The notes beneath the pieces were generated by a model. The model worked only from the letters and a program-made list of their open reading frames with translations, was not told the DNA's origin and made no database searches. Shown in pieces: positions 5,501-38,800 of a DNA stretch of 64,000 bases. Position 1 is the first letter of the stretch. Each line of letters begins with the position of its first letter. A program made the translations under genes and the position numbers. The stretch comes from Eukaryota sp. GEM-RC1 (lineage: Eukaryota), in assembly GCA_040285855.1 (NCBI GenBank), contig JAUFOQ010000004.1, positions 1,426,001 to 1,490,000 on the forward strand, written 5' to 3'.

Positions 5501-5619
5501 GTTTTGAGTAACTTAGATAAATTGTTTTGAGGTCTAACTCATATACCGCTAACTTTACTTCTGAATTGATGATAGAAAGTTTTCCTTGTCCCGAGATACC
5601 ACTGGGACGTGTTGAACTA

Positions 5620-6071
5620 TACGCAAGATTAGAGTAATAATACGAAACAATGTCCGTAATGTCGCTGCCAATTAAACCTTCAATACGACCAGGATTCGAA
5701 GTAGTAGAAGTACTTCTGCCTAGAGCACCATACCTATCCCTACCCCACGACCACACGTCATTGTTGACGTCAACAGCAGTGGAATGCCACCATCTTGCAG
5801 CTGCAGTGATGACTTTTCCAACAACCTTTAGTTCAACTGGATTAACAGAACTAGAACTAGACCCAGTACCTAGACGACCGCTACTATTTACACCCCATGA
5901 CCATAGTTTAGAGTTCACATCAATTCCATGTGCGTGGGTACCAGTAGTGGTTATAAAAACAAACTCAATATCCTCAGCAAATGGAGTTGGAGTTGAGTAA
6001 GATCCAGAACCACCTAATTTTCTTCCACAAGTAAGAGTAGAACCATCCTCTTTGATGAAAAAGGCAGATGT
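5620..6071 (-). other. Partial RCC1/BLIP-II-like propeller (last ~3 blades) of copy C
   Basis: KLWSWGVNSSGRLG…HSTAVDVNNDVWSWGRDRYGALG RCC1-repeat motifs. Confidence 0.85.
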
Positions 6072-6530: not shown

Positions 6531-7710
6531 CTATGAAAACTGTGTAACTTTAAAAACATTAATAACACTAAGCAAGGCTAGAAATGCAAAAATTAAACGA
6601 TCAATAGAAACAGAATTGGCAGCCATGAACAACATTAAAATTGTTTGAATTATCAAATATAAAGGCAAAGTGAAAAATGACGATGATACCATCAAAATAT
6701 ACACAACTGATGAAACAAAATGATATGTTCTTCGTTGAAGATATAGAACAAAAACAACTGATATACAGTGAATGATTAATAAGATAAAGTAGATTAACGG
6801 TTGAGGTGAAACAAGAAAGTGTTGGTGAAGAGTTCCAAAGATGAAATTAATTGAAACTAGAGCAGAAGTTGTCAAGAATGCACTGTGATAAAATTTAAAT
6901 TGTTTCAATTTCCTGAATATAAAGTACGATGAAATAAAGGAAAACAATTGAAAAGATGACGCGACAATAAAGTAACTATCAATGTCAAATTCAAATGCTG
7001 ATAGAATAAATTCAAAGAATACTAGTACAGAACTGGCAGATTTGGTCAAAATTATAGGAATAGAGATCAGTGTTATGAATAACACGTTGGAAAATCTAGA
7101 CATTGATTTAAGTACTTGAGCTTTTTGAAACTCTGAAGTTGAAAAGAGAAGAATATCGTGATGATTTTGCACTAATTCTAGGAACTTTAACATCGAAAAG
7201 TCAGTTAAATAGATGGCAAATATTAATATAACCAACATTCCCACTTTGAAAAGATAATATTCTTCACCAATACAGAAGATTCTGGTAGATATTGAATCGT
7301 CAGTACAATATTGACATAAATCTCCATAAGAATAAGGAGATTTGCAAGAATTTTTTCACAATTGAACCAAATATCACACTCATCTAGTTCCCAAGTAACA
7401 TTGTTTAACATGAAACCAGGTTCAATTCCAGTCAAATTTCCATATCCACATTCAGCTAAATGAGGACAAGGTAAGCAAGCATCTACAGAATCTAGAGTGT
7501 TTAAAGGACAAACACAATGCTCAAGATCACTAGAGCCTTTTGAAGAGTAACTCTAGGATACGGACAAGATCTGCATTCTGAATTGAAGTCTGAATTTGAA
7601 TAATAATTTAAAGCACATTCCACACAGACACCGAGAGAATTAAATTCCATTCCTTTTGGACATAGACAGCCGTTTCCAGAATTCAATTTAGGTAAGTGAC
7701 AATCATTTGA
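6531..7710 (-). other. Cys-rich (GCC2/GCC3-like) region followed by multi-pass transmembrane C-terminus, copy A
   Basis: CLCPKGMEF…CVECALNYYSN…CRSCPYPRVT…CVCP…CLPCP…C motif, then roughly 7-8 hydrophobic stretches; unbroken in copy B ORF 35808-37196. Confidence 0.7.
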
Positions 7711-10700
7711 AACTAGATCGACAGTCGCAGATCGAGCAAAATAGGAAAATGTAATCGTCATTGATTGGATTGGATCCGTGATTATTTCCAGATTCCCACC
7801 AATAACTATGACAGCCTGTTCATCAGTTGAACTAGCTACAGTTTCATAAACAGGTATAAGTTCCGAAGAATTAAGGAAATTGTGTTGAGTAATTAAGTAT
7901 GTGGAAGGCTTGACCAAAGTACAGGATTTGTCAAAAACATTTGATTATCACATTCAAGAAGTTCAACAGTTTCTACTGTCAAAATATGAGTAAACTTTTG
8001 AATAATTGTGAAATTTGATTGAACGAATTGGTTTACAAACTGGAGTTCAAGGTAATGATAGTCAAAACTGAAAGTAGAAGCAGATGAAAATACCAAACTA
8101 TCTGAAAATAGTTCAAAAGAAGTCCAATTAAAAGTTGAAGTTAGAATAGTTAAATTACCTTCACATTCAACAACAAATCCAATGAAATCCATACAAAGAA
8201 CTGGAATTGTCAAGTTCAAGGCATAAGAGTAAGATTCAAGATAGTCCTGAACAAATACCAATTCCACAGCTTTACCAGGAGTAAAAGTAATAGTAAATGG
8301 AGCTTGAGAATGGAAACAATTAGGAGAAATTAGATGAATCGAATAAGAGAGATGAGAAGCAGTAAGAAGGTGAGAAGTCATTGAGATTGAACTTTCAAAT
8401 TGTTCAATATTAGAATATATTTCATTTCCCATCTTCAATTGAATAGTTTCTTCAATTTCTTCTCCCAATGATGTAATTCCTTTGTTGATATCAACAGGAG
8501 TTAGACAAGTATATGACTGATAACCGTAAAATTCCAACTCTAAAAGAAACACGTCATTTCGAGGAATTAAAATAATTTCATCAACTTTTGGTAGAACATT
8601 ATCTATTCCACACATCAAAGCAAAAGAAAAACCACTGGGAATTTGTTTACAGGAATATTTTGGTGAAAGAGTTTGATTGTTTACAATCAGTTTAAAAGGA
8701 AGGTTAGCATCAAAATGTTGACAACTGGAATTTGTAGTAATGACAACCTTGAAAATATCAAAAGAAGAATTAAAATTAACTGAAATGGCGTCACCAGATT
8801 TTAAAAATTCAGAACAAAATGATACATCTACATTGCAGCAACGAGATCCATCAAAAACCATGTCAGTAGAGATATTTGAAATGTATCGAGTATTTTGAAT
8901 TTGGGGATGATGAGAATTTGGTAAGTAACAAATTTCTTCTAAAAAGGCTTCACCATGGACTGAAAAAGAGTTAACAAACAACTCGTCAAAGTAAACGTTT
9001 ACTGGAACAACAACTTGAAATGTGGAAATAATTAAGTTTCTGCAAATAAATGTAGAATTTGAAACTGTTCCAGGAAAGGTTTTACCTCCAACAACACACT
9101 TAAACTGAGAATAAAGAAGTCCGATGAAGTCAACTCCAATGTCACGATGTTCATAAACACTGACGTGATCTGAGCTTGTAAATTCAGTATTGAATATTTT
9201 AATATCACCAATAATTTGATTTTTGAATCCAATATGTTTCCAAGTCCATTGCAAATCACTTTCACCTAATGAGAAACTGAACGAAGAAATATTAAATGAA
9301 TAAGTATACGAAAAAGGAAGGTTCCATAATCGTCTTCAAATAATTGAATTTGATCAGATGCAACAATTAAATTTTTGAGTTGGAAGTCGGAGAATAATGG
9401 ACATTTCGAAAGTACAGAAATTTGAACGATCACGTCATCAATGGTTGAAAAGAACAAAGAAGAAGTAATTGAAATGGTAGGTGGAAGCACAACTTCTCGT
9501 ATTAATTGAAAAGAAAAGGAACTTTCTAAATATTGAACGTTCAATTCAAATGAAGATTCGCCTTGATTTACACTGAAGAAATTTAAAATAAGTGATCCTT
9601 GTAGAGATTCTTGGTCTAATATTTCACAATTGGAAATACATTCTATGGAAATAGAGTAATTGTACTGATTAAAATTGACTGTAAAAGACTGATGAATAGC
9701 AACTTCATAAAAGAAAGGAAACTGATCGTCTATCAAATCAGTCATCAAGGCAACTGCCATTGATTGTGGTGATTGGTGTAATGTTATGAGAGGATCATCA
9801 TCATATAATTCAAACACATTTGAGCCCCTTTTAAGGAGCATAGTTTGACGACCGTGCGAAAGATAAATATTTGAAATTTCTTCCAATAATAAGAACTCAA
9901 TTCGAGAATCGTTTTGAATGAGCGGAGGTAGAACTAGATAATTGTCGACTTCGAAGGCTAATTTAAGATCAAAAGCAGAAGCAAAAGATCTTCCAAAAGC
10001 AATAAAGAATCCAATAGAAATCACGTCAACTTCAAACGTGACTAAATCTTCATCAACATTGGATAACTCAGATGCTAATTCTCCAAATATAAAACTACTC
10101 TGTATAGCTGAGTACTCGTAGAAATGAATTCCTTCAACTTCTAGAGAAATTTCATGAACAAAACTAGAGTCAAACCACTGAATAAATCGAGGAGAAATTG
10201 AATTGGGTAAGACAATAAAAGGTAAGTTAAAGATAGGATAACAACCAACTTCACTACATAATTCTAAGTCTTCAGGATATCCAGGCACTGAAGACATAAA
10301 CTCAATGTGAGCAAGATTAGGAGTGGTTTGAAAATTTACAATTTCAATGAAATTTGGAATATCCAAAGTCACTTGGAAATCGTTTAGGGAAACCTCTCCA
10401 TAGAGACTATAAACATTAATCTCACAAGGTTGGTTGACAAAGCAAACTAAGGAAGTATTATAAGCTTCTAATGACGTGATTGGAAGTGATAGAATAATAG
10501 AAATACCAGTAGTAAATTCAATATGAGTAATAAATCTATTTAGACCAACTAATTCTCCAGTATAAATGATCATTTCATCAGTTGTTAGGTCTTGTACAAC
10601 AGCTGAAGAACCAGACATCTGAATATTAGAATTTGAAAAACAGTCAAACATTTGACCAAAATATGATCCAAATATTCTCAAAATATTTCCAGAAGGGGAA

Positions 10701-13700
10701 AGTACCAATGGGAAAACTCCATGTCTTGGAGCTATAAGTTGAAGTTGAAATACATTACTGGTTTGATTTCCAATTATTACATAAACATTGAAAATGTTAC
10801 TGTCAACTGAACAAACGTAAGGAATATAATGAACAATTTCTTCATGAGAATGATTTGCCACACGTGTTGAAGCAATTTCAGAAACTAAAGATGAATAGTC
10901 AAAACTTGTTGAAAGATCTTGACCAATGATTGAAAGCTCTCCGTTCAATAGGAATGGATACGGATAAACAAAAGAAATGACAGGCTTTTTAAAGCAGTAA
11001 GTAAAGGAAATTATTGAAGAATCTGTTGATCTAGATACGAACATTTCATGACAACCATGACCTTCAAAAAGAAGAAATTCAAATTTTCATGATTAATTGA
11101 ATAATACGCAAGACTTTCATTTACCCAAGCGGTTGAATGATGAATAACAATAGGATCTAACCCAAGATTAAAAGCAAAAGTGGTACAAATCCACCTCTAG
11201 TTGGAGGTTCTAGACTAACAAACTCAATTGGACAAATGGGAATGAATAAATGTTGGAACGAAAATATTCTGGAAATAGTTAAATTGAAATGAATTGAATT
11301 ATTCATTGGATTGAAGGAAATGTCATCATTTAAAAAGAAGTCAAGAGAATTCAATAGAAAGTTGTGGTAGAATTCATCATTATTGGGGACTGAGAGTTCT
11401 AGTAACTCTGAAAGATAGTCTATATTATGGAAATTCAGCGAAACTTGACAAATAGACGTGTTACAACAGTTTTGTGTAGGAGAAATTGAAATATTTGAGA
11501 ATATTTGAGAAAGATCTAAAAATGGATCGTTCCCAAACAATAAGTCCCCATTAAGTGAAGCAAATTTTGAAATAATTGGATATCCAGAAGAGAATGTAAT
11601 TGATGAATTTTGAGCTGTTAGGGAGGATAAGAACAAGACTTCTGTTGAATTAGTCAGAGTGACTGAAGAGTTGGTGACTTCAAAGTCAGATTTAAAGACT
11701 GTTTGGTAGGTACATCCAGAAAATTTAAAATTATTCAAAAGAACTGAAGAATTCGAAATTCTAAAGTAAGGTTCTATTTCTCCAAAAGAAGAAAGTGACT
11801 TGCATTGTTGAATAGAAACTTTGTCAAAATCAACATAAGATTTTGAAATACTGAATAAAGAGGTCGATTCAAAGAAATTTACTGAGAGTTGGGAAATAGA
11901 AAGAGAAGAATCAGATACTTCAAACAGTGTTAATGACTCAATGTCTTGAATAGTCCAAAGTTGAAGTGAACAAGAAGAATTATAGAGGGTTACAAAAGAG
12001 TCAATCAGAGTGAAATTTTCAAATGCTACATTATTTGATGTAAAAAAAGTATCACTAAAATTGAGTGCAGAATATAAAACCATATTAGAAAAAGTGGCAT
12101 CGTTCAGAATCAGATTGGAATTAAAAGAATATAGTAAATGAAGCGATGCGATATTATTGATTACAAGATTAGAAGCAGTGACATTGGATAAAATAAAATG
12201 AATTAAACTTAAATCCTCAGAATTATTTTCCTCGTCAATGAATAGACCAGTAGATTTAGCTGATCTATGTATTCGAAAATTTTGAAGTAACACGTCACTG
12301 TTGAAGGAATACACGATTCTATTTGAAATTTCAAAAAGGCGGCATCAAATAGACTAAAACTGGTTGTAATTAAGTCAAAAGAACATCTGACAAGACTGAA
12401 AAAATTTCGACATGTACCAAGGATATATCACTATCAAATGACGTGATGATGGGAATACTGATGACGTCAGCATATAAGTTTGTAATCAAAAATTGAGAAC
12501 TAGAAGTGTTGAACATGTAATGATTTGCTGAATTCGAGAACGTAGAGATAAGAATTTCTAAAGAATTCAATTCAATTTTACTGTTCGTAGCTTGAATCAG
12601 GGCACTTAACTGACAATGAGCAAAGCTTAAAGAAGTTGAATTCATCAAAGAATTTCTTAGAACGGAAAATTCATGACTAACACTGGAAGTTTCTAGCGTA
12701 AACATGGACAACACAATAACAGAATCTTTGGAAATGAGAACCGAACTGGTGATTGTTTTTGAAATCATAACTCCTTGACAGTAGAGCTCAGAGGTATCTA
12801 ATTTGAGGACATTCGTGACATCAGCATTTACAGTAGTGACGTTTTCAAATCGGAATGAAGATGATACGAGATGAATAAAGCTTCCACTTGAATTAATGGA
12901 TTTAAGTTCTGAATTAGAAATTGAACCGGTAGAATCATTGAAGATGAGGAAGTTGGCACTCGTGATTTGATCTAAAAGTAAGTAATTAAGAGAAAAGGTT
13001 GATGAAGACACTGATATTGTTGACGTATCAGACTTGGAATGAAACTTAGACACACTAACATTTGAAAAGGTGGAATTTGAAAAATTAATCAACATTAAAC
13101 TATCAGCATTAAAGCTAAGAATAAGCAAGTCGTTAAATGTAATAAATGATTCATAAGAGAATAGTAGTGGAGATGTCAGTTGATCAACATTGAGTTGTGT
13201 GGCATTGAGAGTGGAACCTAGAATTGTAATTAAAGAAATATTGGTATAAAAAGGACCGGAAATATCAATAGAATGAGCATTGACAGTACCATGTGAAATA
13301 CTAAACAAAGAGTTTGATAAGTCATTTGTTGAGCCAAACTCAACTGAAAAGAGATCAACACGTGATTCAGATATTTGGAAAACTTCAAATATTGTTGAAT
13401 AATACAAATGTAAGTGTTCTACTCGCATTCCAGTCTCCACTGCTTTAATAAATGTATCCAAAGTCGTGGAGTTGTGAACTATCAGAGTATTGACTTCAAT
13501 ATCTGACATTGCTGCAACCAAAAATGATTGTGTGTTAGCATTGAATATCTCAGTGTTGATTAGATTGACAGTTGAGTAATTAAACCGGAAAGTAACGTCA
13601 GTAATAACATTGGAGACTAGTGAGTAATCAATTGAACATAAACTTGATTCAGATAAATTAAGAATTGAGAAGGAATAAATCTCAATAAAAGAACAGGAAA

Positions 13701-16700
13701 TAAAGGTTAATTCAGTAGTTTTTGCATCAATAAGAGACATAACTCTAATTGTACGAAACCAAACATTGTCAAAGCTAGCAGAAGAATTAACAATTGAAAT
13801 CATATCTAAATTAACACTACTTACATTGGAAAAATAGAAGAACTAATGATTAAAGTAGAATGAGTTGCAGAACCAATTGATCGAGAGCTAACATTGTTAA
13901 AAGAAGTATTTGAAAGATAAACTTCACTAGAAATGAATTCAAAGAGAGTACAATTAAGTAACTCAAAAGCAAGAAGGTCGCTAATAAAGTGGGAATTGCT
14001 TAGATGAATTAATGAAAAATCGTTAGGAGTAGAAATGTTAAAAAATACCAAATTTTTGAAAACTAGATCGGATCGGTGTCCAATCAAAAATGATTCAATC
14101 AAAGTGAGATTAGTATCCAGACTAACGTCATGCAGACTTAATGTAGAATTATTTAGATCGAAAAAAGTTTCCAACTTCGCATCTCCGACTTCAACCAAAT
14201 TGACTGTGACCACTGAATCGTCGGCATTGATAAGTGATTGAGAAGACTCCACGTCAATAATAGAACTATTGGACAAAGAAGCTGAAGAAGAAGTAAGAGA
14301 GAGGAAGTGTTTTAAATTGAGAATGTTGAAATGGGAAAGAGTTAGTGAAAATGTTGAATCATTGAAATTGAAGAAAGAACTTCCATAAATCATAGAAAAC
14401 GTTGACTCTTCAATAGTTACAATAGAAAGATTATCTACAGAGACCAGTACTTGAACTTCAATAGAATGGAAAGAACTATTTGATATTCCTATTTCAGAAT
14501 TAGAACTAAATATGACAGATGACGTATTGGAATTTGTCAAAGAAAGAGCGGAAATTACTACTGATGAATCCGTAAAAGAGAATATTGAACACTCAATTGC
14601 AGATAATAAGAAATCAACAGCTGTGAATTCTGAGTGATTGAACATAAACAGAGGATCAGAAGCGTCACGTATATAAGCAGCATTGATTGAGCTCATTTCA
14701 ATAATGCTAAATTCAGAGTAAAGAAATGACTTATTAATTCTCATAGAATCAATATCCAAGTGATTAATAATAACATTACTGCTAAATAATTCAACAACTA
14801 AAGAAGTATCAACCTTAGTCAAATAAGTAGTATCAAAACTCATAGATCCATCGTCCAAATGAAAAAGTGACGTAAAAGAAGAGTTTTCTATAAGTAAGTT
14901 GTTCATAGATCCATTACAATGTAGACATGTTAAGAGTAAGTCAGCATTGGAGTGAGTTAGTATAATTGAAGAAAGAACTAAATGAGAGTCAACAATGTTG
15001 AAGAGATTGTTGGAAATTGCAGCTAAATTTGTGTTGATTGAATAGCTTTCACTTGAATCATTTGAACCTTCATTAATTTGATGAAAATCCAAAACGTGAA
15101 TAGTTGAATTCGCAGATGTAGTAAGCAAAAATCCAGTAGTTAAAATTGAATCAAAAACCTTAGCCAAATTCAGTTCTAATGTTGAATCAGAAAGATCAAA
15201 AACATGATCGGTAATCAATTTTGATAAGCTCACGTCATTGAGACGAAGAACTGAAGTAGAACCATCAAAAACTGACGTACTATTCATACCAACAGAACAC
15301 AAGGAATCAACAAACAAGTGACTATTTGTTGGCTCGAAAAGTACATTGAAACTGGAAAATACTACTGAAATATTAAATAATGAGACATTAGAATTAACAA
15401 TAAGAAAACCAAACTCTGCTTGGTTATAAGAGATAATGGTATTTTCAATGAAACAACTGCCGACTTTGTTTAAAGCAACTAACGAACCAGATGATTCAGA
15501 AGTATTTAATTTGTTCAAAAACAGCGAACCCTCCATTAAATTGAAGAATCCCAAACTACTTTCTAAATTTGTAGAAGAAATAGAAACAGAATCGATAATA
15601 ATAGAACAATCCGTTGAGAAAAGAAAGGTATTAGAAATTGACATGTGGTGCAACAGAAAATGATTCATAACAATGATTGAATTGGAAACGTGATACACAC
15701 GTGATGCTGACGTGTTCGACATCATGAAGTCGGAAAATGAAAGATCACATTCATTCAAAGTAAACATATTAGTAACAGAAGAATTACTAACGAAGACCCT
15801 TTGGAAAGCACCAACAGATTGTTTTGTATTAAAAAATTCCACAATACTTGACCGACTCAATGAAATATCTTTGAGCTCTAAAATTGTCGGTTGAGCCAGA
15901 ATGACAGTTTCTAAGTAACTGTCATAAATATTCAAAAAATTGATATCCAAAAGATTGACCTCCATTAACTCAATAAGACTTCCAGTTGTATCAAAAATGT
16001 CCATATCAGTAATAGAAACGGTACCTCTGAGAATATCAAAACACGTGTCACAAGTAACAGTAGAAATGGTTAATTCATTTAGTTCAACTGGACCGTTTGA
16101 TGACTCAATCAGTGACTTACAATTAATATCTTGAAAAACAATGGTTTGGAGGTCAATCTTTGAGTTGGAAACGAAGATGATCGCACTTGAAGAATCAATA
16201 CTGAACAGGTTAAATTCGATTAAAATGATTTCAGCATCGTCTGCGGATAATAACTGATCAATGTTAATTGATGATGAAACTGAAAAACGATCCATAATAA
16301 ATACACTAGTTTTGATTGAAAAAATAATTGTAGTGGTAACAGACTCAAAAGACAGTCCATTTTCAATGATTTGACTTTCGACAAGATCAAAAACAGTAAA
16401 CGAAAAGTAAGAATTTGAACAAAATGAATAAGACAAAGTAATGTTAGACTTTGTTAATTGAAATAATGATGATGAGTTAATATTTAAAAAAAGTGCTGTA
16501 AGAAACATACAATGGTGTGTTGTCAAGAACAAAAGGGGAATCCGTAAAAGATCCAGAAACACTAACATTTTGTAAAATTAATTGCGAATTACTAGACCTT
16601 AATAAACTGGAGGAATTCGACTTGAAACTACAGTTTGATAGAAAAACTGTAGATGTATCAGTCAGTATTGTAGTAGAACCAGCTTCATGAAAGATGTTTG

Positions 16701-19700
16701 AATTAATTAATTGGATAATGGAATCAACAAAAGAAAAACAACTAGGAGAATAACAAACAATATCAATGTTGGAAAGAGACAACTTGGAATGTAATACTTC
16801 TGAAAAAGTCTGGTAGATTCCATCAATCACCACGTCACCTAGACCAATCAATTGCCAATCAACGTCATTTACATCACCCAATCCATTTTTAAAAGTGTAA
16901 TTTCCACTATGAAAATATATTGTCCCTTTTCTTCCCATTCTTTCTACAACTCTTTTGAAAGAAGCACAAGGACTATCAAAAGTTCCACAACAAGGATCAT
17001 CAACTCCAGTAGTAGAAATGTAAGAAATTTGATTTAAGTCGAGTACATTATCATTGACAAAGACAATTAGAGAAGTTTCTGAATAGATGGTAGTAATAAG
17101 TGAATTACAGGGACTAATAACATCATGAAACTTACCATTAATTAGACCAGATTCTATAATAGTGTAGTTATTCCCAGTTGAATCATACATTGTTTCCAAA
17201 ATCTATTTCTAATATTCCATCTAAATAAGCAGTTGAACCAACAATTAATTGAGTAAAAGAATCATCATTATTGATTTGAATAGAGACGATTGAAGAAGGT
17301 AAAAGAGCAAGAATATCATCAAAAGCAATTAAAGGTAAAGGAATGAGTGTTCCAGCGTTTGAGGTGTTGTTGAAAACTGTTCCTGATCCTCGTAAAATTT
17401 GAAAATGGGTCAATTCCAAATTTTGATCTAAGATGACGTTTGCATCAGACAATACGATACCAGCATCAGAATTAAATGTAGTTGTAGATAACGTAACAAA
17501 ACTTCTCATCAAAACATCAGAATGACAAGTGATAGAACCACTAGAAGACTGGAATTCTGAAACTGACACGTCATCAAGAATCACGTGACTGAAGAAATCA
17601 AAAGAATTCGCCAATTGAATTCGACCAGTGATTGATGAATTATCTACTGATTCTTGAACAATTAAAGCAGATGAGAAGTTTCCTGAGTTAATCTCAGAAT
17701 ACGTTTCTATCAAAAATGCCGAACTTCCAAGTATTTGGCAATGAAAACAAGAGAAATAAGCAACAATAGTCTGAGTACTGGAAGCTGACTCAAAAGTTGA
17801 AAAGGATAAATCTAAAATATGGATATTAGCAAAGTCAAAATCATTCTGAAAATGACTGTTAATAGCGATCAAAATAACATTTGATGACGAGATATCTACC
17901 GAATCATCATAATAGAGCTCACTTGAACTTAAGGTTATATGGAGGCTATCAGAGTTAATTTTTGAGTCTTCACTTAAGCTCATAATCGATTCTCTGTCAA
18001 GCTCGACTTGCTCTAAATTTTCGAAAGTAAAGTTATTTAATTGTAAATTTGATGAAATCAAAGTAACAGAACTGATGAACATTTGTGCCGATAAAAACAT
18101 AATGTTTGAATCAATTAATGAAACGTGGCCCCAATCAACTTGAGGGTTATCAAAACTGAATTGATTAATCTCATCAATGGAAAGGGTAGTGGTGGAAAAA
18201 GGGCGTCATGAACAACATTTGAATTAATTAATTGGAAAGTTGAGTCCGATAGTGAAAAACAGAAGAGCGAATAGCAGAAAATATCAACGTCTGAAAGAGA
18301 AAGATTGGTGCCTACTATTTCCAAATAAAGTATCGTCAAATGCTTCAATCACCACGTCACCGAGACCAATCACTTCCCAATCAACGTCATGTACCTTCCC
18401 AATCCATTCTTAAAAGTGTAATTTCCGCTATGAAAATAAACCTGCCCTTTTCTGCCCATTCTGTCTACAACTCCTTTGAAAGAAGCACAAGGACTGTCGA
18501 AAGTACCACAACAAGGATCATCAACGCCAGTAGTGGAAATGTAAGAAACTTGATTTAAGTCGAGTACATTATCATTGACAGAGACAATTAGAGAAGACTC
18601 TGAATAGATGGTAGTAATGAGTGAATTACAGGGACTAATAACAGCATGAAACTTTCCATTAATTAAACCAGATTCTATAATAGTGTAGTTATTCCCAGTT
18701 GAATCATAAATTGTCTCAAATTCTAGTTCTAATATTCCATCTAAATAAGCAGTTGAACCAACAGTTAATTGAGTACAAGAATCATCATTATTAATTTGAA
18801 TAGAGACGATTGAAGAAGGTAAAAGAGCAAGATTATCATCAAAAGCAATTAAAGGTAAAGGAATGAGTTTTCCAGCGTTCGAGGTGTTGTTGAAAACTGT
18901 TCCTGATCCTCGTAAAATTTGAAATACTGACAATTCCAAATTTTGCTCTAAAATGACGTTTGCATCTGACAATATGATACCAGCATCAGAATTGAATGTA
19001 GTTGTAGATAACGTAACAAAACTTCTCATCAAAACATCAGAATGACAAGTGATATAACCACTAGAAGACTGGAATTCTGAAACTGACACGTCATCAAGAA
19101 TCACGTGACTGAAGAAATCAAAAGAATTCGCCAAATGAATTCGACCAGTGATTGATGAATTATCTACTGATTCTTGAACAATTAAAGCAGATGAGAAGTT
19201 TCCTGAGTTAATCTCAGAATACGTTTCTATCAAAAATGCCGAACTTCCAAGTATTTGGCAATGAAAACAAGAGAAATAAGCAACAATAGTCTGAGTACTG
19301 GAAGCTGACTCAAAAGTTGAAAAGGATAAATCTAAAATATGGATATTAGCAAAGTCAAAATCATTCTGAAAATGACTGTTGATAGCAATCAAACTGACAT
19401 TTGATGACGAGATATCGACCGAATCATCATAATAGAGCTCACTTGAATTTAAGGTTATATGGAGGCTATCAGAATTAATTTTTGAGTCTTCACTTAAGCT
19501 CATAATCGATTCACTGTTGAGCTCGACTTGCTCTAAATTTTCAAAAGTAAAGTTGTTTAATTGTAAGTTTGAAGAAATCAAAGAAACAGAACTGATGAAC
19601 ATTTTTGCTGATAGAAACAAAATGTTTGAATCAATAATTGAAAAGTATCCCCAATGATCTTGAGGAGTATCAAAACTGATTTGATCAATCTCATCAATGG

Positions 19701-22700
19701 ATAGAGTAGTGGCGGAAAAAACGGCGTCATGAACAACACTTGAATTAATTAATTGAAAGGATGAGTCAGGTAGAGAAAAACAATAGGCGGAATAGCAAAA
19801 ATGTTAACATTTGAAAGAGAAAGATTGGAGTGAACGATTTCAAATAGAGTTTCATCAATGCCTTCAATAATGACGTCACCGAGACCAATCAATTGCCAAT
19901 CAACGTCAGTTACATTCCCCAATCCTTGATTAAAGGTGTAACTTCCTTCGTGGAAAATAACCTTCCCTTTCCTTCCCATTCTTTCAAAAACTCCTCTAAA
20001 AGAAGCACAAGGACTATCGAAAGTACCACAGCAAGGATCATCAACACCAGTAGTAGAAATGTAAGAAATGGTGTTTAAATGAGCAATATAGTCATCGAAC
20101 GATCCAATTACTGAAGTAGAAGTATACTCAATATTGAAAATAGAAGAACAAGTGCTTTTGACTGAAGTAAATCGACCTAAACGATGGTAAGAATCAATAA
20201 GTACGTATTGTTTACCACCCCAATGTTTGAAAGGATCAAATTCTACTTCTATTGTACCATCTAGAAAAGCAGTTGAACCTACAATTACTTGAGTAGAAAA
20301 ATTATCATTATTGATTTGAATAGAGACTGTAGAAGAAAGAGAAAGTGAAAGGTTGTCATCAAAAATAATTAAAGGTAAAGGAATTATTTGTCCAGTGTTT
20401 GAGGTGTTGTCAAAAATTACTCCTAAGCCCTTTAAAATTTGAAATTCTGACAATTCCAAATTTTGCTCTAAGATGACGTTTGCATCTGAAAGAATGACAC
20501 CAACATCAGAAGCAAATGTAGTTGAAGATAATGTAACGAAATTTCTCTTCAAAACGTCAGAATGACAAGTGATTGAACCACTAGAGGACTGGAATTCTGA
20601 AACTGACACGTCATCAAGAATCACGTGACTGAAGAAATGAAAAGAATTAGCCAACTGAATTTGACCAGTGATTGATGAATTATCTGCTGATTCTTGAACA
20701 ATTAAAGAAGACGAGAAATTTCCAGAGTTAATCTCAGAATATTTTTCTATCGACAATAGGGAACTTCCTAGTATTTGGCAATGAAAACAAGAGAAATAAG
20801 CAACAATAGTTTTAGTACTTGAAGCTGACTCAAAAGTTGAAAAGGACAAATCTAAAATACGAATATTAGCAAAGTCAAAATCATTTTGAAAATGACTGTT
20901 AATAGCGATCAAAGTCACATTTGATGACGAGATATCTACTGAATCATCATAATAGAGCTCACTGGAATATAAGGTTATATGGAGGCTATCAGAATTAATT
21001 TTTGAGTCTTCACTTAAGCTCATAATCGATTCACTGTTGAGCTCGACTTGCTCTAAATTTTCGAAAGTAAAGTTATTTAATTGTAAATTTGATGAAATCA
21101 AAGTAACAGAACTGATGAACATTTGTGCCGATAAAAACATAATGTTTGAATCAACAAATGAAAGGTGTCCCCAATGATCTTGCGGGTTATCAAAACTTAA
21201 TTGATTAATCTCATCAATGGAAAGAGTAGTGGTGGAAAAAACAGCATCATTAACAACACTTGAATTGATAAATTGGAAAGTTGAATCCGGTAGAGAAAAA
21301 CAATAGGCGGAATAACAAAAATGTCAATATTTGAAACAGAAAGATTCGAGTGAACTATTTCAAATAAAGGGACATCAACTCCTTCAATGATGAGGTCACC
21401 AAGACCAATCACTTCCCAATCAACGTCATTTACCTTCCCCAATCCCTGATCAAAAGTGTAATTTCCACTATGGAAATAAACTTTCCCTTTTCTTCCCATT
21501 CGTTCTAAAACTCCTCTAAAAGAAGCACAAGGGCTATCAAAAGTTCCGCAACAAGGATCATCATTACCAGAAGGAGAAATGTAAGAAGTTTGATTTAAGT
21601 CGACTACAAAATCATTTACAGAAACAATTAGAGAAGTTTCTGAATAAAACGTGGTGATAAGTGAAGCGCAAGGATTAATACTACTAAATCTTCCATTAAT
21701 TAGACCAGCTTCTATAAGAGTGTAATTATTCCCAGTTGAATCATACTTTGTGCCAAGTTCCAGTTCTAGTATTCCATCTAAATAAGCAGTTGAACCAATA
21801 ATTAGTTGAGTAGAGGAATAATCATTGTTGATTTGAAGAGAGACGATGGAAGAAGAAGAAAGAGAAAGGTTGTCTTCAAAAGTAAAGTTCGAGGAAGGTT
21901 TAATTTTGCCAAAATTTGAAGTATTTGTAGTAATAGCACCAAATCCTGTAATAATTTGATAATCAAGGATTACAAAACAAGGGTCAAAAAGTAAAGTTGA
22001 ATCGTTTAGAGTCAAAGTATCATAGTAAATTAAGGAAACTTTGGATATACTAACATCATTTTTCATCAAAACGTCAGAATGACACGTAATAGACCTGTTA
22101 GAAGAAGGCTGAAATTCTGAAACTGACACGTCATCAAGAATCACGTGACTGAAGAAATCAAAAGAATTCGCCAATTGAATTCGACCAGTGATTGATGAAT
22201 TATCTACTGATTCTTGAACAATTAAAGAAGATGAGAAGTTTCCAGAATTAATCTCAGAATATTTTTCTACCGACAATGGCGAACTTCCAAGTATTTGGCA
22301 ATGAAAACAAGAGAAATAAGCAACAATAGTTTTAGTACTTGAAACTGACTCAAAAGTTGAAAAGGATAAATCTAAAATATGAAGATTAGCAAGGATAACA
22401 TCATTCTGAAAACGACTGTTGATAGCTACCACACTAACATTTGATGACGAGATATCTACTGAATCATCAAAATAGAGCTCACTTGAATTTAAGGTTATAT
22501 GGAGACTATCTGAATTAATTTTAGAGTCCACTGTTAAATTTGCTAAGGAATCAAACAGTACGAGGGTTTTTAAATTGTCCAAGATGACGTCACTTGATTG
22601 AAGAGTCGAAGAACTTAGAGAAATTGTTTTGAAGTCAAACTTGGTCGATGATAATTGTACTTCTGAATGGACAAGAGAAAGTTTACCATTGCCGTGGATA

Positions 22701-25689
22701 CTACTAACAGTTAGTGGAGTGTAATCCAAAGCGTTAATCTCAGAAAGTGTTAAAGTTTTTCTGAATATCTGCACTGCACGAATTCGTCCTTTAAAAGAGC
22801 CAGCTATAGGAAAATACAATGAAGGATGGGAACTGTATGATGCAGTAAACTGCAGTTCTTGATTACCATTGAAGTAAATACGAGCTGTTGATGAAGAATA
22901 AGCCATAACCAAGTGGATCCATTGGCGTCGTGGAGGATGAATATCACGATATCGGCTTCCCCAGCCAGTCAAAGTGCCGTCAATGTAAGTTCTACCAGAA
23001 GAACTATGAAGGCCGATTCTTCCATCTTCATAGTATATCCACAAAGAAATAGAGGCGTCTCTCCATCCAGTGGGACCCACAAGGTTTGGAATATGGAGAG
23101 TGTTACCAGATTTGATATCTAGATAACCCCCAACTCCATCTTGTTTCCACTCTCAGGTCCTTCAATTTTGATAGCATCAGAGTCGTGAATACCTGAATGG
23201 TCAATTGTGTTGTAAGAATCATGCCAAGTATAGTGTAAGAAGAGGTTTGAATTTGAATCTGTGTTAGTACCACTGCTTTTAAGTACAACACCAGTGACGT
23301 TTACAAACTCAAGTACACTCAACTCATCGAGTTCAAGGACACCATCTTGGTGATCAAAGTAACCACTGACTATAAGTTTGTGACTGATTAGGAACGTGCG
23401 AAGACTCTCCAAAACAACAGAGTTTGCTGAAGTAAAGGATGAAGAAGAAGAGAGATCTGTGTGGAAAGTACCTGCATTAAGTAGAAGAGTATTCGTGACA
23501 GTGAGAGTTGAGTTGTTTTTAAAGAGGAGAACTGCATTGGAAGATACTGTTAGAGATGATGCGGAGACTGCCACGTCATCAAGAAACACGTGACTAAACA
23601 AATCAACTGAGTTGCCAAATTGAACTGTACCAGTGATCAAAGAATTCTCAGCAGATTCAAGAACAATTAATGAAGATGAGAAATTTCCAGAATTAACTTC
23701 TAAATATGAATCTATTGACAACAATGAATTTCTTAGTACCTGACAATAAGAGCACAAGAGTGAACCAACAATTACTTCAGAATCAAATGACTCAAAAGTT
23801 GCAAAGGATAAATCTAAAAGATGGAAATTGGTGAAGCCAATAGTATTCTGAAAATGACTGTTGATGACAATTAAATTCAGTTTTGATATAGTGATGTCAT
23901 TTGAACCGTCACAGTAGAGCTCACTGGAATTTAAAGTTATAGTTAGATCATCAGATTCAATCTTTGAGTCTTGAGTTAAATTAACCAACGAATTATCACA
24001 GAGCTCAAGGTTTTTTAAATTGTTCAAGGACACGTCATTTAAGTAGAGAGTTGAGTAACTTAGGGAAATTGTGTTGAGGGCAATGTTGTACGATGATAAT
24101 TGTACTTCTGAACTGATAAGAGACAGTTTTCCTTGTCCCGAGACAATACTCGAGTGAGAGCAATAACTATAGGCAAAATTAGACCGATAATATGCACTAA
24201 TACTAGTAACTCCTTTACCTTCCAAATGAGTAATACGACCTGGTATGGTTGCAGGAGAACTTTGAGAAGTAGTTCTACCTAGAGCACCATTAGAATCCCC
24301 ACCCCAAGACCATACGTCGTTATTAACGTCAACAGCAGTAGAGTGTTGCGGTCCTGCAGCTGCAGTAATCACTTTCCCAATGTTTTTTACTTCAACTGGA
24401 GTAGCAGAGTCTGATGTACTACCCCTACCTAGTCTACCATGATCACCCCTACCCCAACTCCATAGCTTCTGGTTAACATCAATTCCAACAGCGTGCCAAA
24501 GAACAGTGTCAATAAAGACAAACTCAATATCCTCAGCAAATGGAGTTGGAGTTGAATAAGTTCCAGTATCACCTAATCTAAAACCACAAGTAAGAGTAGA
24601 ACCATCCTCTTTAATGAAAAAAGCAGCACGTCCAGCAGCAATAAATTTAATATTTTGTAAGGAATTGATTAACATTGGTGAATGTTCGTTAATGGTGTTT
24701 GTCTTACATAAAACATTATCCCTACCCCATCCCCATCCATAAACTTTACCATCTCTAGTTAAAGCAAATGCAGTAAGAAATCGACCAGCAATTTGTTTAA
24801 CATTACTTAAATTTGGAATTAACGTAGGTGTATATATGTTGTTTGTATGCCCTAACCCTAACTGACCATCTCGATTCCACCCCCAAGAATAAACATACCC
24901 AGAAATATTCAAGGCACGATTTGAGCGAGCAGAAGCAACTGCCTGCACAATATTTGAAATTTGAATTTTTGCATGAACTTTCCGATCCCCACCGACATAT
25001 CCTAGAGGTGAATAATTGTTACTTCCAGAAGTGTAAACGTCACCATTTACCAAAAGAACTAGAGAATGATCTATTGCAGCAGAAGCTTGTCTAATAGGGT
25101 AAGGAAGAGTAAATGACTCAGGTGACAATTGATTTCCTGATAGTCCTCCTCCAAGTTGACCATCATTATTCCTTCCCCAAACATGAAGAACATCAGAACT
25201 GATTGAGGATTCACCATCATTGAAAGAAGTGTAAGTAACATTGTCCAAAACAAGCTCACTGAACTCATCTAGATCAATAGAACCACGTTTCCAATCAAAG
25301 AGATCAGTGACAACCAGTTTGTGGGACAGGAAGGACACAAGGTCAGCATCCAAGACAAGAGAGTGTACGGAAGTAGAAGAAGAAGAGATTGCGTTGGTGT
25401 GTAAAGTACCTCCATTAAGGAGGAGAGTACCAGAGATAGTTAAAGTCGAGTGGGCTTTGAAGAAGAGAACAACGCTAGAGGACAAAGTGAGGGACGATAT
25501 GATAACGTGATCATCTATAGTGACAGTGATGGTTGTAGACTGAGTAGAAATAACAACAGAAGAAGAAATCGAAGGAGAACCAGTCTGATCCCAATTGCTT
25601 CCTTCAGACCAAAGTCCAGAACTTGTGGCATCCCATTTGAAGATCGAGCCGAGAACGCAACAACTCAGAAGAAGGAGTCCGATGATCAT
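6531..25689 (-). CDS. Giant (~6,400 aa) modular cell-surface/membrane protein, copy A: signal peptide, RCC1 propeller, LamG-like domain, 4 repeat modules, beta-helix-like stalk, IPT/TIG-like, Cys-rich, multi-TM. Split by indels in this assembly.
   Basis: ATG at 25689 gives MIIGLLLLSCCVLG (signal peptide). A chain of abutting or overlapping minus-strand ORFs from 23119-25722 to 6531-7244 joins at homopolymers; several breaks are in-frame in copy B. Confidence 0.8.
16800..22600 (-). repeat. Four tandem ~1.52-kb coding modules of copy A
   Basis: DDPCCGTFDSPCASF at ~16980, ~18500, ~20020 and ~21540. Confidence 0.9.
22720..23250 (-). other. LamG/concanavalin A-like domain in slot 2 of copy A
   Basis: LFLHYTW…DHSG…ASISLWI…QWIHLVMAYSSSTARIYFNG…FKGRIRAVQIFRKTLTLSEINAL fits the Laminin_G_3 consensus; one frameshift near 23125. 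Confidence 0.8.
24165..25190 (-). other. Complete 7-repeat RCC1/BLIP-II-like propeller, slot 1 of copy A
   Basis: Seven repeats of the H-S-L…G-x-V-Y-x-W-G-x-N-x-x-G-Q-L-G type. Confidence 0.9.
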
Positions 25690-27484: not shown

Positions 27485-28609
27485 TTCAGCGCTGCCTGTG
27501 TCTTTATGGCGAAAGAAACTGAATACTACTACAGTACCTTTGGACTCTGGAACAATTTAAAGATCTATTTAACAACCATCCAGGAGTTTTTATTATATAT
27601 ACGAAAACGGCATTGATTAATGTTGTCAGGAAAATGTTTCCTACATCCGGTCACGTTTTATGCTTGTTACATATCGTACAAAATTTAATCCAAATTAAGA
27701 ACGCTAAAAAAATTTTTGATCCAGCAAGGAAAATATTTATGGAACATTTTGACTCTGTAATTCAAAGTGAAGCAGTCGAAGAATTTTGTTGGAATTTGAA
27801 TGTGATGACAGGCAAATATGAAAATGATCGAGAATGTGGTGATGCCTTCATATATTTAATTAACAATTGGTTCGATATGAAGGAAAGTTTCTGTTATTAC
27901 AATATTGATCAATTCACTCACTTTGAAACTTACACTAACAATCGGGCCGAGTCCGCCCACAATGCACTAAAATCCGGAGATCGAATGTACAAAAGAGACT
28001 TGGAGAGTGATATGGAGAAAGCTATGGCTACTATGGAGCATCCAGTAATCGACTTAAGAAGGAAAATTGATGTTGATAAGCAGAGAGTCGACCGAGAACT
28101 GATCAACACCGATTTATTTGTGAACGTAATTCGACACGTGTCATCTTTTGCTTTGTTGAAGGTTTTACAAATTATTGCTTTTAGCCAAACGAATCACGTG
28201 GATTCAGTATGTTCAGGTAGAACTGAGAGAATAACTGGAATTCCATGTATTCACAGCATTAAAAGAACACAAAGACTTTCCAAAGTCATGTTTCATCGAC
28301 AGTGGTGGTTAGAAGAGGAAGAAGAATCAGGTCAAATTTCTAATCCTGTTGAAGAACTGTTCAATCAATGGCGGTCTACTGACTCAGCAGCAGACAAGGT
28401 ACGGTGAAGAGGCTGCCAATGTGGGTTTAGCAATATCTGCCCATCGATACGAAGGTCCAAAAGTTCATGAGGAGAATGTTAGGGTGATGAGAACTGAAAA
28501 GAAGAAAACCGCAAGGAAATGTAGAGTGTGTCGCCGGGAAGGACATGATAGCAGAAGTCATTGTCAAAGATGTAAGAAAGTCAAGAAAGATTGTGATTGT
28601 GAGCACTAG
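27485..28609 (+). mobile_element. Degenerate Mutator-like (MULE) transposase
   Basis: ALINVVRKMFP…HVLCLLH (CxxH), TNNRAESAHNALK (catalytic E), SWIM-like C…TGIPCIH, C-terminal knuckle CRVCRREGHDSRSHC; N-terminus missing; frameshift near 28405. Confidence 0.85.
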
Positions 28610-32516: not shown

Positions 32517-33197
32517 TACACGAACAATCAAGCCGAGTCCGCCCACAATGCACTAAAATCCGGAGATCAAATGTACAAAAGAGACTTGGAGAGTGATATG
32601 GAGAAAGCTATGGCTACTATGGAGCATCCAGTAATCGACTTAAGAAGGAAAATTGATGTTGATAAGCAGAGAGTCGACCGAGAACTGATCAACACCGATT
32701 TATTTGTGAACGTAATTCGACACGTGTCATCTTTTGCTTTGTTGAAGGTTTTACAAATTATTGCTTTTAGCCAAACGAATCACGTGGATTCAGTATGTTC
32801 AGGTAGAACTGAGAGAATAACTGGAATTCCATGTATTCACAGCATTAAAAGAACACAAAGACTTTCCAAAGTCATGTTTCATCGACAGTGGTGGTTAGAA
32901 GAGGAAGAAGAATCAGGTCAAATTTCTAATCCTGTTGAAGAACTGCTCAATCAATGGCGGTCTACTGACTCAGCAGCAGACAAGGTACGGTTAGAAGAGG
33001 CTGCCAATGTGGGTTTAGCAAGGTCTGTCCATCGATACGAAGGTCCAAAAGTTCATGAGGAGAATGGTAGGGTGATGAGAACTGAAAAGAAGAAAACCGC
33101 AAGGAAATGTAGAGTGTGTCGCCGGGAAGGACATGATAGCAGAAGTCATTGTCAAAGATGTAAGAAATTCAAGAAAGATTGTGGTTGTGAGCACTAG
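32517..33197 (+). mobile_element. Second, 5'-truncated copy of the MULE transposase
   Basis: Near-identical to 27931-28609 from YTNN(Q/R)AESAHNALK onward; upstream sequence is unrelated. Confidence 0.85.
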
Positions 33198-35807: not shown

Positions 35808-38800
35808 CTACGAAAACTGCGTAATTTTAAAAACATTAATAACACTAAGCAAGGCTAAAAATGCAAAAATTAAACGATCAATAGAAACAGAATTGGCAGC
35901 CATGAACAACATTAAAATTGTTTGAATTATCAAATATAAAGGCAAAGTGAAAAATGACGATGATACCATTAGAATGTAAACAATTGATGGAACAAAATGA
36001 TATGTTCTTCGTTGAAGATATAGAACAAAAACAACTGATATACAGTGAATGAATAATAAGATAAAGTTGATTAACGACTGAGGTGAAACAAGAAAGTGTT
36101 GGTGAAGAGTTCCAAAGATGAAATTAATTGAAACTAGAGCAGAAGTAGTCAAGAAAGCACTGTGGTAAAATTTAAATTGTTTCAATTTCCTGAATATAAA
36201 GTATGATGAAATAAAGGAAAACAATTGAAAAGATGACGCGACAATAAAGTAACTATCAATGTCAAATTCAAATGCTGATAGAATAAATTCAAAGAATACT
36301 AGTACCGAACTGGCAGATTTGGTCAAAATTATAGGAATAGAGATCAATGTTATGAATAACACGTTGGAAAATCTGGACATTGATTTGAGCACTTGAGCTC
36401 TTTGAAATTCTGAAGTTGAAAAGAGAAGAATATCGTGATGATTTTGCACTAATTCTAGGAACTTTAACATCGATAAGTCAGTTAAATAGATGGCAAATAT
36501 TAACATAACCAACTTTCCCACTTTGAAAAGATAATATTCTTCACCAATACAGAAGATTCTGGTAGATATTGAATCGTCAGTACAATATTGACATAAATCT
36601 CCATAAGAATAAGGAGATTTGCAAGAATTTTCTTCACAATTGAACCAAATATCACACTCATCTAGTTCCCAAGTAACATTGTTTAACATGAAACCAGGTT
36701 CAATTCCAGTCAAATTTCCATATCCACATTCAGCTAAATGAGGACAAGGTAAACAAGCATCTACAGAATCTAGAGTGTTTAAAGGACAAACACAATGGTC
36801 AAGATCACTAGAGCCTTTTTGAAGAGTAACTCTAGGATAAGGACAGGACCGACATTCTGAATTAAATTCTGAATTTGAATAATAATTTAGAGCACATTCC
36901 ACACATTCACCGAGAGAATTAAATTCCATTCCTTTTGGGCATAAACAGCCGTTTCCAGAATTCAATTTAGGAAAGTGACAATCATTTGAAACTAGATCTA
37001 CAGTCGCAGATCGAGCAAAATAGGAAAATGTAATCGTCATTGATTGGATTGGATCCGTGATTATTTCCAGATTCTCACCAATAACTATGACAGCCTGTTC
37101 ATCAGTTGAACTAGCTACAGTATCATAAACATGTATAAGTTTTGAAGAATTAAGGAAATTGTGTTGAGTAATTAAGAATATGGAAGGCTTGACCAAAGTA
37201 CAAGATTTGTCAAAAACATTTGATTATCACATTCAAGAAGTTCAACAGTTTCTACTGTCAAAATATGAGTAAACTTTTGAATAATTGTGAAATTTGATTG
37301 AACGAATTGGTCTATGAACTGGAGTTCAAGGTAATGATAGTCAAAATTGAAAGTAGAAGCAGATGAAAATACCAAACTATCTGAAAATAGTTCAAAAGAA
37401 GTCCAATTAAAAGTTGAAGTTAGTGTAGTTAAATTACCTTCACATTCAACAACAAATCCAATGGAATCCATACAAAGAACTGGAATTGTCAAGTTCAATG
37501 CATAAGAGTAAGATTCAAGATAGTCCTGAACAAACACCAATTCCAGTGCTTTACCAGGAGTAAAAGTAATAGTAAATGGAGCTTGAGTATGAAAACAATT
37601 AGGTGAAATTAGATGAATCGAATAAGAGAGATGAGAAGCAGTAAGAAGATGAGAAGTCATTGAGATTGAACTTTCAAATTGTTCGACATTAGAATATATT
37701 TCATTTCCCATCTTTAATTGAATAGTTTCTTCAATTTCTTCTCCCAATGATGTAATTCCTTTGTTGATATCAACAGGAGTTAGACAAGTATATGACTGAT
37801 AACCGTAAAACTCCAACTCTAAAAGAAACACGTCATTTTGAGGAATTAAAGTAATTTCATCAACTTTTGGTAGAACATTATCTATTCCACACATCAAAGC
37901 AAAGGAAAAACCACTGGGAATTTGTTTACAAGAATATTTTGGTGAAAGAGTTTGATTGTTTACAATCAGCTCAAAAGGAAGGTTAGCATCAAAATGTTGA
38001 CAACTGGAATTTGTAGTAATGACAACCTTGAAAATATCAAAAGAAGAATTAAAATTAACTGAAATGGCATCACCAGATTTTAAAAATTCGGAACAAAATG
38101 ATACATCTACATTGCAGCAACGAGATCCATCAAAAACCATGTCAGTAGAGATATTTGAAATGTATCGAGTATTTTGAATTTGGGGATGATGAGAATTTGG
38201 TAAGTAACAAATTTCTTCTAAAAAGGCTTCACCATGGACTGAAAAGAGTTAACAAACAACTCGTCAAAGTAAACGTTTACTGGAACAACAACTTGAAAAG
38301 TGGAAATAATTAAATTTCTGCAAAAAATGTAGAATTTGAAACTGTTCCAGGAAAGGTTTTACCTCCAACAACACACATAAACTGAGAGTATAGAAGTCCG
38401 ACGAAATCAACTCCAATGTCGCGATGTTCATAAACACTGACGTGATCTGAACTGGTAAATTCTGTATTGAATATTTTAATATCACCAATAATTTGATTTT
38501 TGAATCCAATATGTTTCCAAGTCCATTGCAAATCACTTTCACCTAATGAGAAACTGAACGAAGAAATGTTAAACGAATAAGTGTATGAAAAACGGAAGGT
38601 TGCATAATCGTCTTCAAATATTTGAATTTGATCAGATGAAACAATTAAATTTTTGAGTTGAAAGTCGGAGAATAATGGACATATCGAAAGTACAGAAATT
38701 TGAACAATCACGTCATCAATGGTTGAAAAGAACAAAGGAGAAGTAATGGAAATGGTAGGTGGAAGCACAACTTCCCGTATTAATTGAAAAGAAAAGGAAC

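What the first reader, a model, noticed from the sequence alone, without database searches (positions are those of the whole stretch)
22600..23400. Interchangeable domain cassette: the same scaffold slot holds an RCC1 propeller in copies B and C but a LamG domain in copy A
Seen: each head domain sits between conserved flanks, …SHKL(I/V)VT…DL(D/S)xxSELVLDxVT…[domain]…(S/H)G(Q/N)GKLSLxxSEV(Q/K)LSS…. Slot 1 is RCC1 in A and B. Slot 2 is RCC1 in B (52000-53020) and C, but an unrelated ~175-aa LamG/ConA-like fold in A, with the flanks preserved on both sides. No introns are evident at the borders. Inference: binding domains are swapped by recombination between homologous flanks, a plug-in architecture reminiscent of bacterial polymorphic adhesins/toxins.
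Basis: partly seen in the sequence, partly recalled or inferred. Interest (0 to 1): 0.78.

Follow-up and report, generated by a model that had tools for sequence, protein, structure and literature searches.

The report
Swappable heads on protist surface protein
In a family of giant, likely cell-surface proteins from a free-living microbial eukaryote, one position holds either of two unrelated folds (a propeller or a lectin-like sandwich), and the copy examined is a patchwork that was likely made by recombination between gene copies, which would let the cell vary what it binds.

Summary
Real, with corrections. Copy A (about 6,400 codons, minus strand) has a LamG domain (22694-23292) where copy B has an RCC1 propeller. 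Copy C is cut off mid-RCC1 and has no left flank. A frame break inside the LamG looks like a consensus error. A and B switch from 13% to 43% mismatch at 23406 and back near 22430-22545. In between, both proximal flanks match LamG-bearing paralogues rather than B, and synonymous divergence rises too. So a roughly 0.9-1 kb flank+domain+flank tract was exchanged. Among 49 paralogues, 30 filled slots hold RCC1 (22), LamG (7) or a CBM-like domain (1). All four two-slot RCC1/LamG orders occur, and scaffold trees reject one LamG clade (AU p=0.0003). A model of a paralogue puts both flanks in one beta-helix with the head looping out. It works like CdiA's exchangeable receptor-binding domains but is not a toxin system, Pmp or var gene. 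Not shown: reads, expression, ligands, direction of the swap, ongoing switching (nearest LamG only 55% identical). The scan had no note on this sequence, and one loosely similar note on other (giant-virus) DNA.

The parts
6531..25689 (-). Copy A: one gene of about 6,390 codons read across frame breaks (signal peptide, RCC1 slot, LamG slot, three stalk repeats, long beta-rich body, Cys-rich region, several hydrophobic segments)
25234..25689 (-). Signal-peptide-like start and left flank of slot 1 (predicted beta-helix)
   Evidence: weak Amnionless hits in paralogues
24139..25200 (-). Slot 1 head of A: RCC1 beta-propeller
23404..24138 (-). Inter-slot scaffold; counterpart of B 53171-53904 (82% aa, dS 0.30) and of P0033 440-565
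23293..23403 (-). Proximal left flank inside the exchanged tract: 73% to P0003/P0033 (LamG type), 43% to B; left crossover at 23409-23403
22694..23292 (-). Slot 2 head of A: LamG/ConA-like domain, sister to the P0003 LamG (98/96), at most 55% identical; frame break near 23150
22430..22693 (-). Proximal right flank: the first ~50-60 aa are closest to LamG paralogues P0041/P0033 (73/70%); right crossover between about 22545 and 22430
16680..21240 (-). Three ~1.52-kb stalk repeats; each begins with a relic of the LamG C-terminal helix (21233, 19713, 18193)
6531..7900 (-). Ephrin-receptor-like Cys-rich repeat and membrane-spanning C-terminus (Pfam hit and hydropathy taken on the B counterpart 35808-37223)
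35808..55453 (-). Copy B: same gene with RCC1 in both slots
51977..53026 (-). Slot 2 head of B: RCC1 propeller at the position of A's LamG
53905..54960 (-). Slot 1 head of B: RCC1 propeller
1..6071 (-). Copy C: 5'-truncated copy that starts in the second half of an RCC1 propeller, has the right flank and stalk repeats, and runs off the window

Best explanation
Copies A and B are paralogous genes for giant, likely membrane-anchored proteins whose predicted beta-helix stalk carries a folded head in one predicted loop, and the head in slot 2 (LamG in A, RCC1 in B) was likely exchanged by ectopic recombination or gene conversion with crossovers in the shared flanks. Shown: the two domains, their common flanks, the mosaic boundaries, and the mix of heads across paralogues. 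Predicted: left and right flanks form one continuous beta-helix, so any domain whose ends lie close together can be displayed there without breaking the stalk. Inferred: a ~0.9-1 kb tract (37 codons of flank, the LamG, ~50-90 codons of flank) came from a P0003/P0033-type paralogue into an RCC1-RCC1 gene. The reverse direction is not excluded. Inferred: the heads are variable binding modules (glycan or protein ligands on prey bacteria, surfaces or viruses), and shuffling diversifies the repertoire over evolutionary time.
For: Left change-point A vs B at 23406, mismatch 0.126 to 0.434; right at about 22426, 0.303 to 0.109; 0 of 300 permutations reach either. Among codons with the same residue, synonymous differences are 34 of 184 distal vs 7 of 16 proximal on the left (p=0.025) and 21 of 135 vs 16 of 34 on the right (p=0.0003); dS is 0.30 outside and about 1.3 inside. 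Triplet A/B/P0003: breakpoint-corrected permutation p=0.0035. With P0033 and P0041, B-like:donor-like sites are 16:3 then 1:12 (left) and 1:16 then 42:7 (right) (these split points were chosen after seeing the data). Census of 49 proteins: 36 left flanks, followed by RCC1 22, LamG 7, other 1, truncated 6. Two-slot orders: RCC1-LamG (A), RCC1-RCC1 (B), LamG-RCC1 (P0033), LamG-LamG (P0006, second domain cut). The N-terminal scaffolds of LamG genes P0003 and P0033 group with RCC1 genes A, B and P0034 (100/99); one LamG clade is rejected, AU p=0.0009 (17 rows) and 0.0003 (22 rows). The model of P0025 (pLDDT 74.7) matches the Vag8 beta-helix at Z 17.6, rmsd 4.6, 280 residues aligned over 22-528, more than either flank alone (about 150 and 165); the LamG at 174-363 matches separately at Z 15.8. 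dN/dS is below 1 in all 14 pairs (0.15-0.55), highest in the RCC1 heads.
Against: No reads, expression or localisation data were available. The closest LamG is only 55% identical, so no donor copy was found and the swap may be old. Against P0003 alone the right flank gave a clear signal in only 1 of 4 triplets. B and C, both RCC1, also show a right-flank change-point (0.237 to 0.114), so high divergence near the heads is general. The direction is unresolved: A, B and P0033 inter-slot scaffolds are about equidistant. Paralogue architectures come from automated gene models that are visibly stitched across breaks. The structure is of a paralogue, and continuity was inferred from aligned lengths, not from coordinates.
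Confidence: 0.8

Rival explanations
1. Vertical inheritance with co-adaptation: RCC1 and LamG modules are old fixed architectures, and the proximal flanks follow the head type because they pack against it, while the distal scaffold is homogenised by conversion.
For: Proximal flanks cluster by head type. Divergence rises toward the heads in all pairs, including RCC1-RCC1. No near-identical donor exists in the set.
Against: Synonymous sites change at the same boundaries. The left boundary falls within 6 nt. Sequence on both sides of the tract is B-like. AU tests reject a LamG clade. Homogenising both sides is itself recombination in the flanks.
Confidence: 0.1
2. Misassembly: a LamG module from another locus was stitched into copy A through the repeated flanks.
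For: The region is repetitive (83-93% internal and inter-copy identity) and carries many indel errors.
Against: Both junctions are in frame. No paralogue carries this LamG (at most 55%). The same slot holds LamG in 6 other proteins. The flanks at the junctions differ from other copies by 13-30%, which long reads usually resolve (own knowledge).
Confidence: 0.05
3. The mosaic is real but functionless: the copies are decaying pseudogenes and the swap is a by-product of recombination in a repeat-rich region.
For: Every copy has many frame breaks, including one inside the LamG. C is truncated. Transposon remnants lie between the copies.
Against: 20 of 22 A/B downstream indels are of 1-2 nt, mostly at base runs. 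The neighbouring exportin-like gene is broken the same way. dN/dS is 0.15-0.55 throughout. Purifying selection in the past does not prove present function.
Confidence: 0.05

Closest known systems
CdiA effectors with modular receptor-binding domains (PMC5371414, passages read)
   Same: A variable binding domain sits inside a long filamentous protein between conserved FHA-repeat regions and is proposed to be exchanged by recombination.
   Different: CdiA class I-III binding domains share 24-27% identity and are thought to share a fold; here the heads are unrelated folds. No TPS domain, C-terminal toxin or immunity gene was found. The host is a eukaryote and the anchor is a multi-pass membrane region.
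Bacterial polymorphic toxin systems (PMC3482391, abstract and passages)
   Same: A constant body with a replaceable part; orphan 5'-truncated copies downstream (copy C resembles one in position only).
   Different: There the C-terminal toxin is replaced by one crossover together with its immunity gene. Here an internal, N-terminal-region binding domain is replaced with two crossovers, and there is no toxin domain.
Plasmodium var/PfEMP1 ectopic recombination (PMC4270465, abstract and section 8)
   Same: Large eukaryotic surface-protein family; in-frame crossovers in short identity blocks between divergent paralogues; distal part variable.
   Different: In var genes 109 of 110 crossovers join the same domain class and keep the architecture; here the domain class changes. 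No DBL/CIDR domains. The host lineage is free-living, not parasitic. Ongoing mitotic shuffling is shown for var and not here.
Chlamydial and trichomonad Pmp proteins; autotransporter passengers such as Vag8 (PMC11166332 passages; PMC6701047 abstract)
   Same: Right-handed beta-helix with variable side loops; adhesion role; trichomonads are also metamonads (10.1101/2024.09.26.614816, listing only).
   Different: No GGA[ILV] motif (0 in 5,989 residues of copy A), no Pmp Pfam hit, no autotransporter barrel. The loops here hold whole 150-360 aa domains.

Membership tests
Laminin_G_3 / ConA-like lectin superfamily (the head in A slot 2) | Match to PF13385 above the curated cut-off | tested here: met
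   34.1 bits vs 27.6
Laminin_G_3 / ConA-like lectin superfamily (the head in A slot 2) | ConA-like beta-sandwich fold | tested here: met
   On paralogue models: Z 15.8 (P0025) and 12.3 (P0003) to AbnA domain 4
Laminin_G_3 / ConA-like lectin superfamily (the head in A slot 2) | Binds carbohydrate | not testable with these tools
   Needs a binding assay
RCC1-like beta-propeller (heads in A1, B1, B2, C) | PF25390/PF00415 matches | tested here: met
   PF25390 188-202 bits vs cut-off 150 for A1, B1, B2; C is a half domain at 65 bits
CdiA (contact-dependent inhibition) | Exchangeable internal binding domain in a beta-helical stalk | tested here: met
   (fold predicted; binding not tested)
CdiA (contact-dependent inhibition) | TPS domain, C-terminal toxin, cdiB/cdiI neighbours | tested here: not met
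   No such Pfam family among the 20 window ORFs and 4; the C-terminus is Cys-rich plus hydrophobic segments
Polymorphic toxin system | Variable C-terminal toxin domain with adjacent immunity gene | tested here: not met
   The variable part is in the N-terminal 1,000 residues; the C-terminus is the most conserved part (96% aa)
Pmp family | GGA[ILV]/FxxN repeat pairs | tested here: not met
   0 GGA[ILV] in 5,989 residues translated from 11 ORFs of copy A
Pmp family | Parallel beta-helix body | tested here: met
   Predicted: Z 15-17.6 to beta-helix proteins
var/PfEMP1 | DBL and CIDR domains | tested here: not met
   No such Pfam hits
var/PfEMP1 | Frequent ongoing mitotic recombination | not testable with these tools
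   No sequencing runs were available

The most novel reading that the evidence does not exclude
A free-living protist runs an active combinatorial receptor repertoire: dozens of clustered genes, with truncated copies such as C as donors, keep plugging unrelated recognition folds (RCC1 propeller, LamG, CBM-like) into loops of a beta-helix stalk, giving cell-to-cell variation in prey or virus recognition.
Probability: 0.15. Interest if true: 0.88.

Novelty: new variant of a known kind. Interest (0 to 1): 0.63.

Why it matters
Exchange of binding domains through conserved flanks is known from bacterial CdiA, and in-class recombination from parasite var genes. Here three unrelated folds occupy one internal loop of a predicted beta-helix in a lineage described as a free-living bacterivore (PMC11316075, passages), where host immunity cannot be the driver. 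The family gives mapped crossovers for studying how domain shuffling happens without introns. It also supplies candidate receptors for prey recognition in metamonads, and a natural display scaffold that tolerates 150-360 aa inserts. I found no description of it in 10 full-text searches; PMC11316075 has 0 occurrences of RCC1, laminin or adhesin in its main text (supplements not read).

Tried and rejected
No whole genome was held, so the family census rests on protein searches, not DNA. No sequencing run was listed; that is no evidence either way, and read laying was not used. A search with A's own slot-2 flank region returned only 2 proteins, both repeating the window's copies. The metagenome scan gave 1 locus, L001, whose match lies inside a 2,353-aa reverse-transcriptase-like ORF (read by eye), rejected as chance. 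The viral contig scan found nothing. The profile search of 1.84 billion representatives gave 42 hits; every named one is from Eukaryota sp. GEM-RC1 and 3 carry no name, so no bacterial or other-species source of the scaffold was found. One weak bacterial hit (P0032, E 3.5e-4) and Atlas leads under 0.9 are not enough to claim gene transfer. The first fold model (P0003) did not test the flanks because other domains filled the list. Foldseek lists only reflect the shared ConA-like fold; the neurotoxin binding domains among them imply no toxin relationship. My interim reading that A's right flank was RCC1-type was dropped when P0033 and P0041 proved closer. Apparent empty slots in P0056 and P0033 were not used, because gene models may splice over broken DNA. 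Rows left out of the census: P0001, P0005, P0014, P0017 and P0038 (they repeat the window's copies) and P0032 (bacterial). P0040 is also window-encoded; it stayed among the 49 but had no hit. P0056 and P0057 arrived later and are not counted.
Full report
Setting. The window holds three minus-strand copies of one very long gene: A (25689-6531, about 6,390 codons), B (55453-35808, about 6,550) and C (6071 to the window edge). A and B start with a signal-peptide-like sequence. They end in an ephrin-receptor-like Cys-rich repeat (E 5.4e-7) and at least five hydrophobic segments (on B). Every named relative but one weak bacterial hit is a hypothetical protein of Eukaryota sp. GEM-RC1. A paper describes Skoliomonas sp. 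GEM-RC as a free-living bacterivorous metamonad (PMC11316075, passages).

Observation. Slot 2 of A holds a LamG domain and the same position of B holds an RCC1 propeller; slot 1 is RCC1 in both. The insert in A is 23292-22694. Both junctions lie in open frames. A frame break sits inside the LamG near 23150.

Are the breaks real? Of 22 indels between A and B downstream of the slot, 20 are of 1-2 nt, mostly in base runs. The exportin-like neighbour on the other strand changes frame at such runs too. All 14 segment pairs have dN/dS of 0.15-0.55. I read the breaks as consensus errors (inference); no reads were available to prove it.

Mosaic boundaries. A and B differ at 12.6% of sites through the inter-slot scaffold and at 43.4% from 23406 on (support interval 23409-23403). 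On the right they go from 30.3% to 10.9% at about 22426. No permutation of 300 reached either value. Synonymous differences rise at both boundaries (34 of 184 vs 7 of 16, p=0.025; 21 of 135 vs 16 of 34, p=0.0003), which packing constraints do not explain. Segment by segment, A's nearest relatives are P0033 slot 2 and B (RCC1, 83 and 81%) for the distal left flank, and P0003/P0033 slot 1 (LamG, 73%) for the proximal left flank. They are P0003 for the LamG (55%, 98/96 in a tree of 31 LamG domains), P0041/P0033 (LamG, 73/70%) for the proximal right flank, and then the window's own copies again. The triplet A/B/P0003 has a breakpoint-corrected p of 0.0035. So the exchanged unit is flank+head+flank, with crossovers in homologous scaffold. 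Against this: with P0003 alone the right flank was clear in only 1 of 4 triplets, and B vs C shows a right-flank change-point without a change of head type. I take the latter as RCC1-for-RCC1 exchange (inference).

Family census. In 49 proteins, 36 left flanks are followed by RCC1 (22), LamG (7), another 147-aa domain (1, P0012) or a truncation (6) (rows left out are listed under Tried and rejected). The P0012 insert resembles CBM_4_9 at 0.89 in the Atlas, a lead only; P0027 carries the end of a similar domain. All four two-slot orders of RCC1 and LamG are present (A, B, P0033, P0006). In trees of the N-terminal scaffold, LamG genes P0003 and P0033 sit in a 100/99 group with A, B and P0034 (RCC1), and one LamG clade is rejected (AU p=0.0009 with 17 rows; 0.0003 with 22 rows, whose bootstrap had not fully settled). 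At least two switches are thus needed, besides the one in A. These architectures come from automated gene models, some visibly stitched across breaks.

Age and direction. A profile of the last 45 residues of paralogue LamG domains, built without the right flank, hits the true LamG and the start of all 9 stalk repeats in the window, and nothing else in six frames (weak scores of 3.5-11.1 bits). LamG has therefore been paired with this flank since before the stalk expanded (inference). No close donor was found, so the swap in A is old or its donor unsampled. B and P0033 both have RCC1 behind the same inter-slot scaffold, which favours LamG entering A, but the three are about equidistant and unrooted.

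Structure. A model of paralogue P0025 (20 rows, pLDDT 74.7, pTM 0.64) aligns to the Vag8 passenger beta-helix with Z 17.6, rmsd 4.6, over 280 residues spanning 22-528. It aligns to 5nxk with Z 15.0, rmsd 3.8, 229 residues over 49-473. The LamG (174-363) matches AbnA domain 4 separately at Z 15.8. Neither flank alone has that many residues, so the model places both flanks in one beta-helix with the head looping out (inferred from counts). The stalk region of P0003 (712-970) is a pectin-lyase-type beta-helix (Z 15-17.5). RCC1 propellers and LamG sandwiches both have their ends close together (own knowledge), which would make them fit one loop.

Mechanism. Shown: domains, flanks, mosaic boundaries, mixed heads across paralogues, and rising A/B identity from the heads (about 0.8) to the membrane end (0.95-0.98). 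Predicted: the beta-helix loop. Inferred: ectopic recombination or conversion among clustered paralogues; surface display; binding of prey, substrate or virus ligands by the heads, which show the highest dN/dS (0.45-0.55 for RCC1) but no ratio above 1.

Comparison. It works like CdiA, whose internal receptor-binding domains are exchangeable (PMC5371414, passages), and like var recombination in using in-frame crossovers between divergent paralogues (PMC4270465, abstract and section 8). It fails membership in CdiA, polymorphic toxins (PMC3482391, passages), Pmps (PMC11166332, passages; PMC6701047, abstract) and var. What differs is the exchange of unrelated folds in an internal loop, in a non-parasitic eukaryotic lineage. 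PMC11603281 (passages) describes the feeding of these cells and has 0 occurrences of glycocalyx or coat. Ten searches found no description of the family; supplements were not read. The scan's index had nothing by sequence or place and one note on a within-fold lectin swap in a giant-virus protein, not checked here.

Verdict. A real feature and a well-supported past domain exchange; a new variant of a known kind. Interest 0.63, held down by the lack of reads, of any functional data and of evidence for ongoing switching.

Noticed in passing
window 21233, 19713, 18193; 50515, 48994, 47474; 4130, 2610, 1089 (minus strand): All 9 stalk repeats begin with a relic of the LamG C-terminal helix just before the right-flank motif, like an emptied LamG slot.
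   Followed up: yes
window 63518-64000 (-): ORF cut by the window edge with a weak TnpB/Cas12f-like TNB match (PF07282, E 2.2e-4, below cut-off); could be a Fanzor-type element (label recalled).
   Followed up: no
window 27523-29501 and 32424-34087 (+): Two MULE transposase remnants (PF10551, E 5.4e-5, below cut-off, for the first), 93.7% alike over 1.6 kb, between copies A and B.
   Followed up: no
window about 56124-56861: A ~740-nt insertion upstream of copy B, absent upstream of A, with 15-nt terminal inverted repeats and apparently a second inverted-repeat element nested inside (read by eye).
   Followed up: no
window 57246-60530 (+): Importin-beta/exportin-like gene broken by frame changes at base runs; used as a control for indel errors.
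   Followed up: partly
window 60671-62248 (-): Intact GH47 alpha-mannosidase gene (E 1.4e-87).
   Followed up: no
window 6067-6293: Copy C starts about 200 nt after the end of A's 3' homology to B, with no promoter-side homology: a rearrangement junction, and a possible donor fragment.
   Followed up: partly
proteins P0019, P0024, P0026, P0028, P0029, P0031, P0033, P0034: Further slot types exist: RCC1 followed by a different right flank, and a second, divergent LamG class (9 of 31 domains, 100/100) in another scaffold context; P0033 appears to lack that domain at the matching place.
   Followed up: partly
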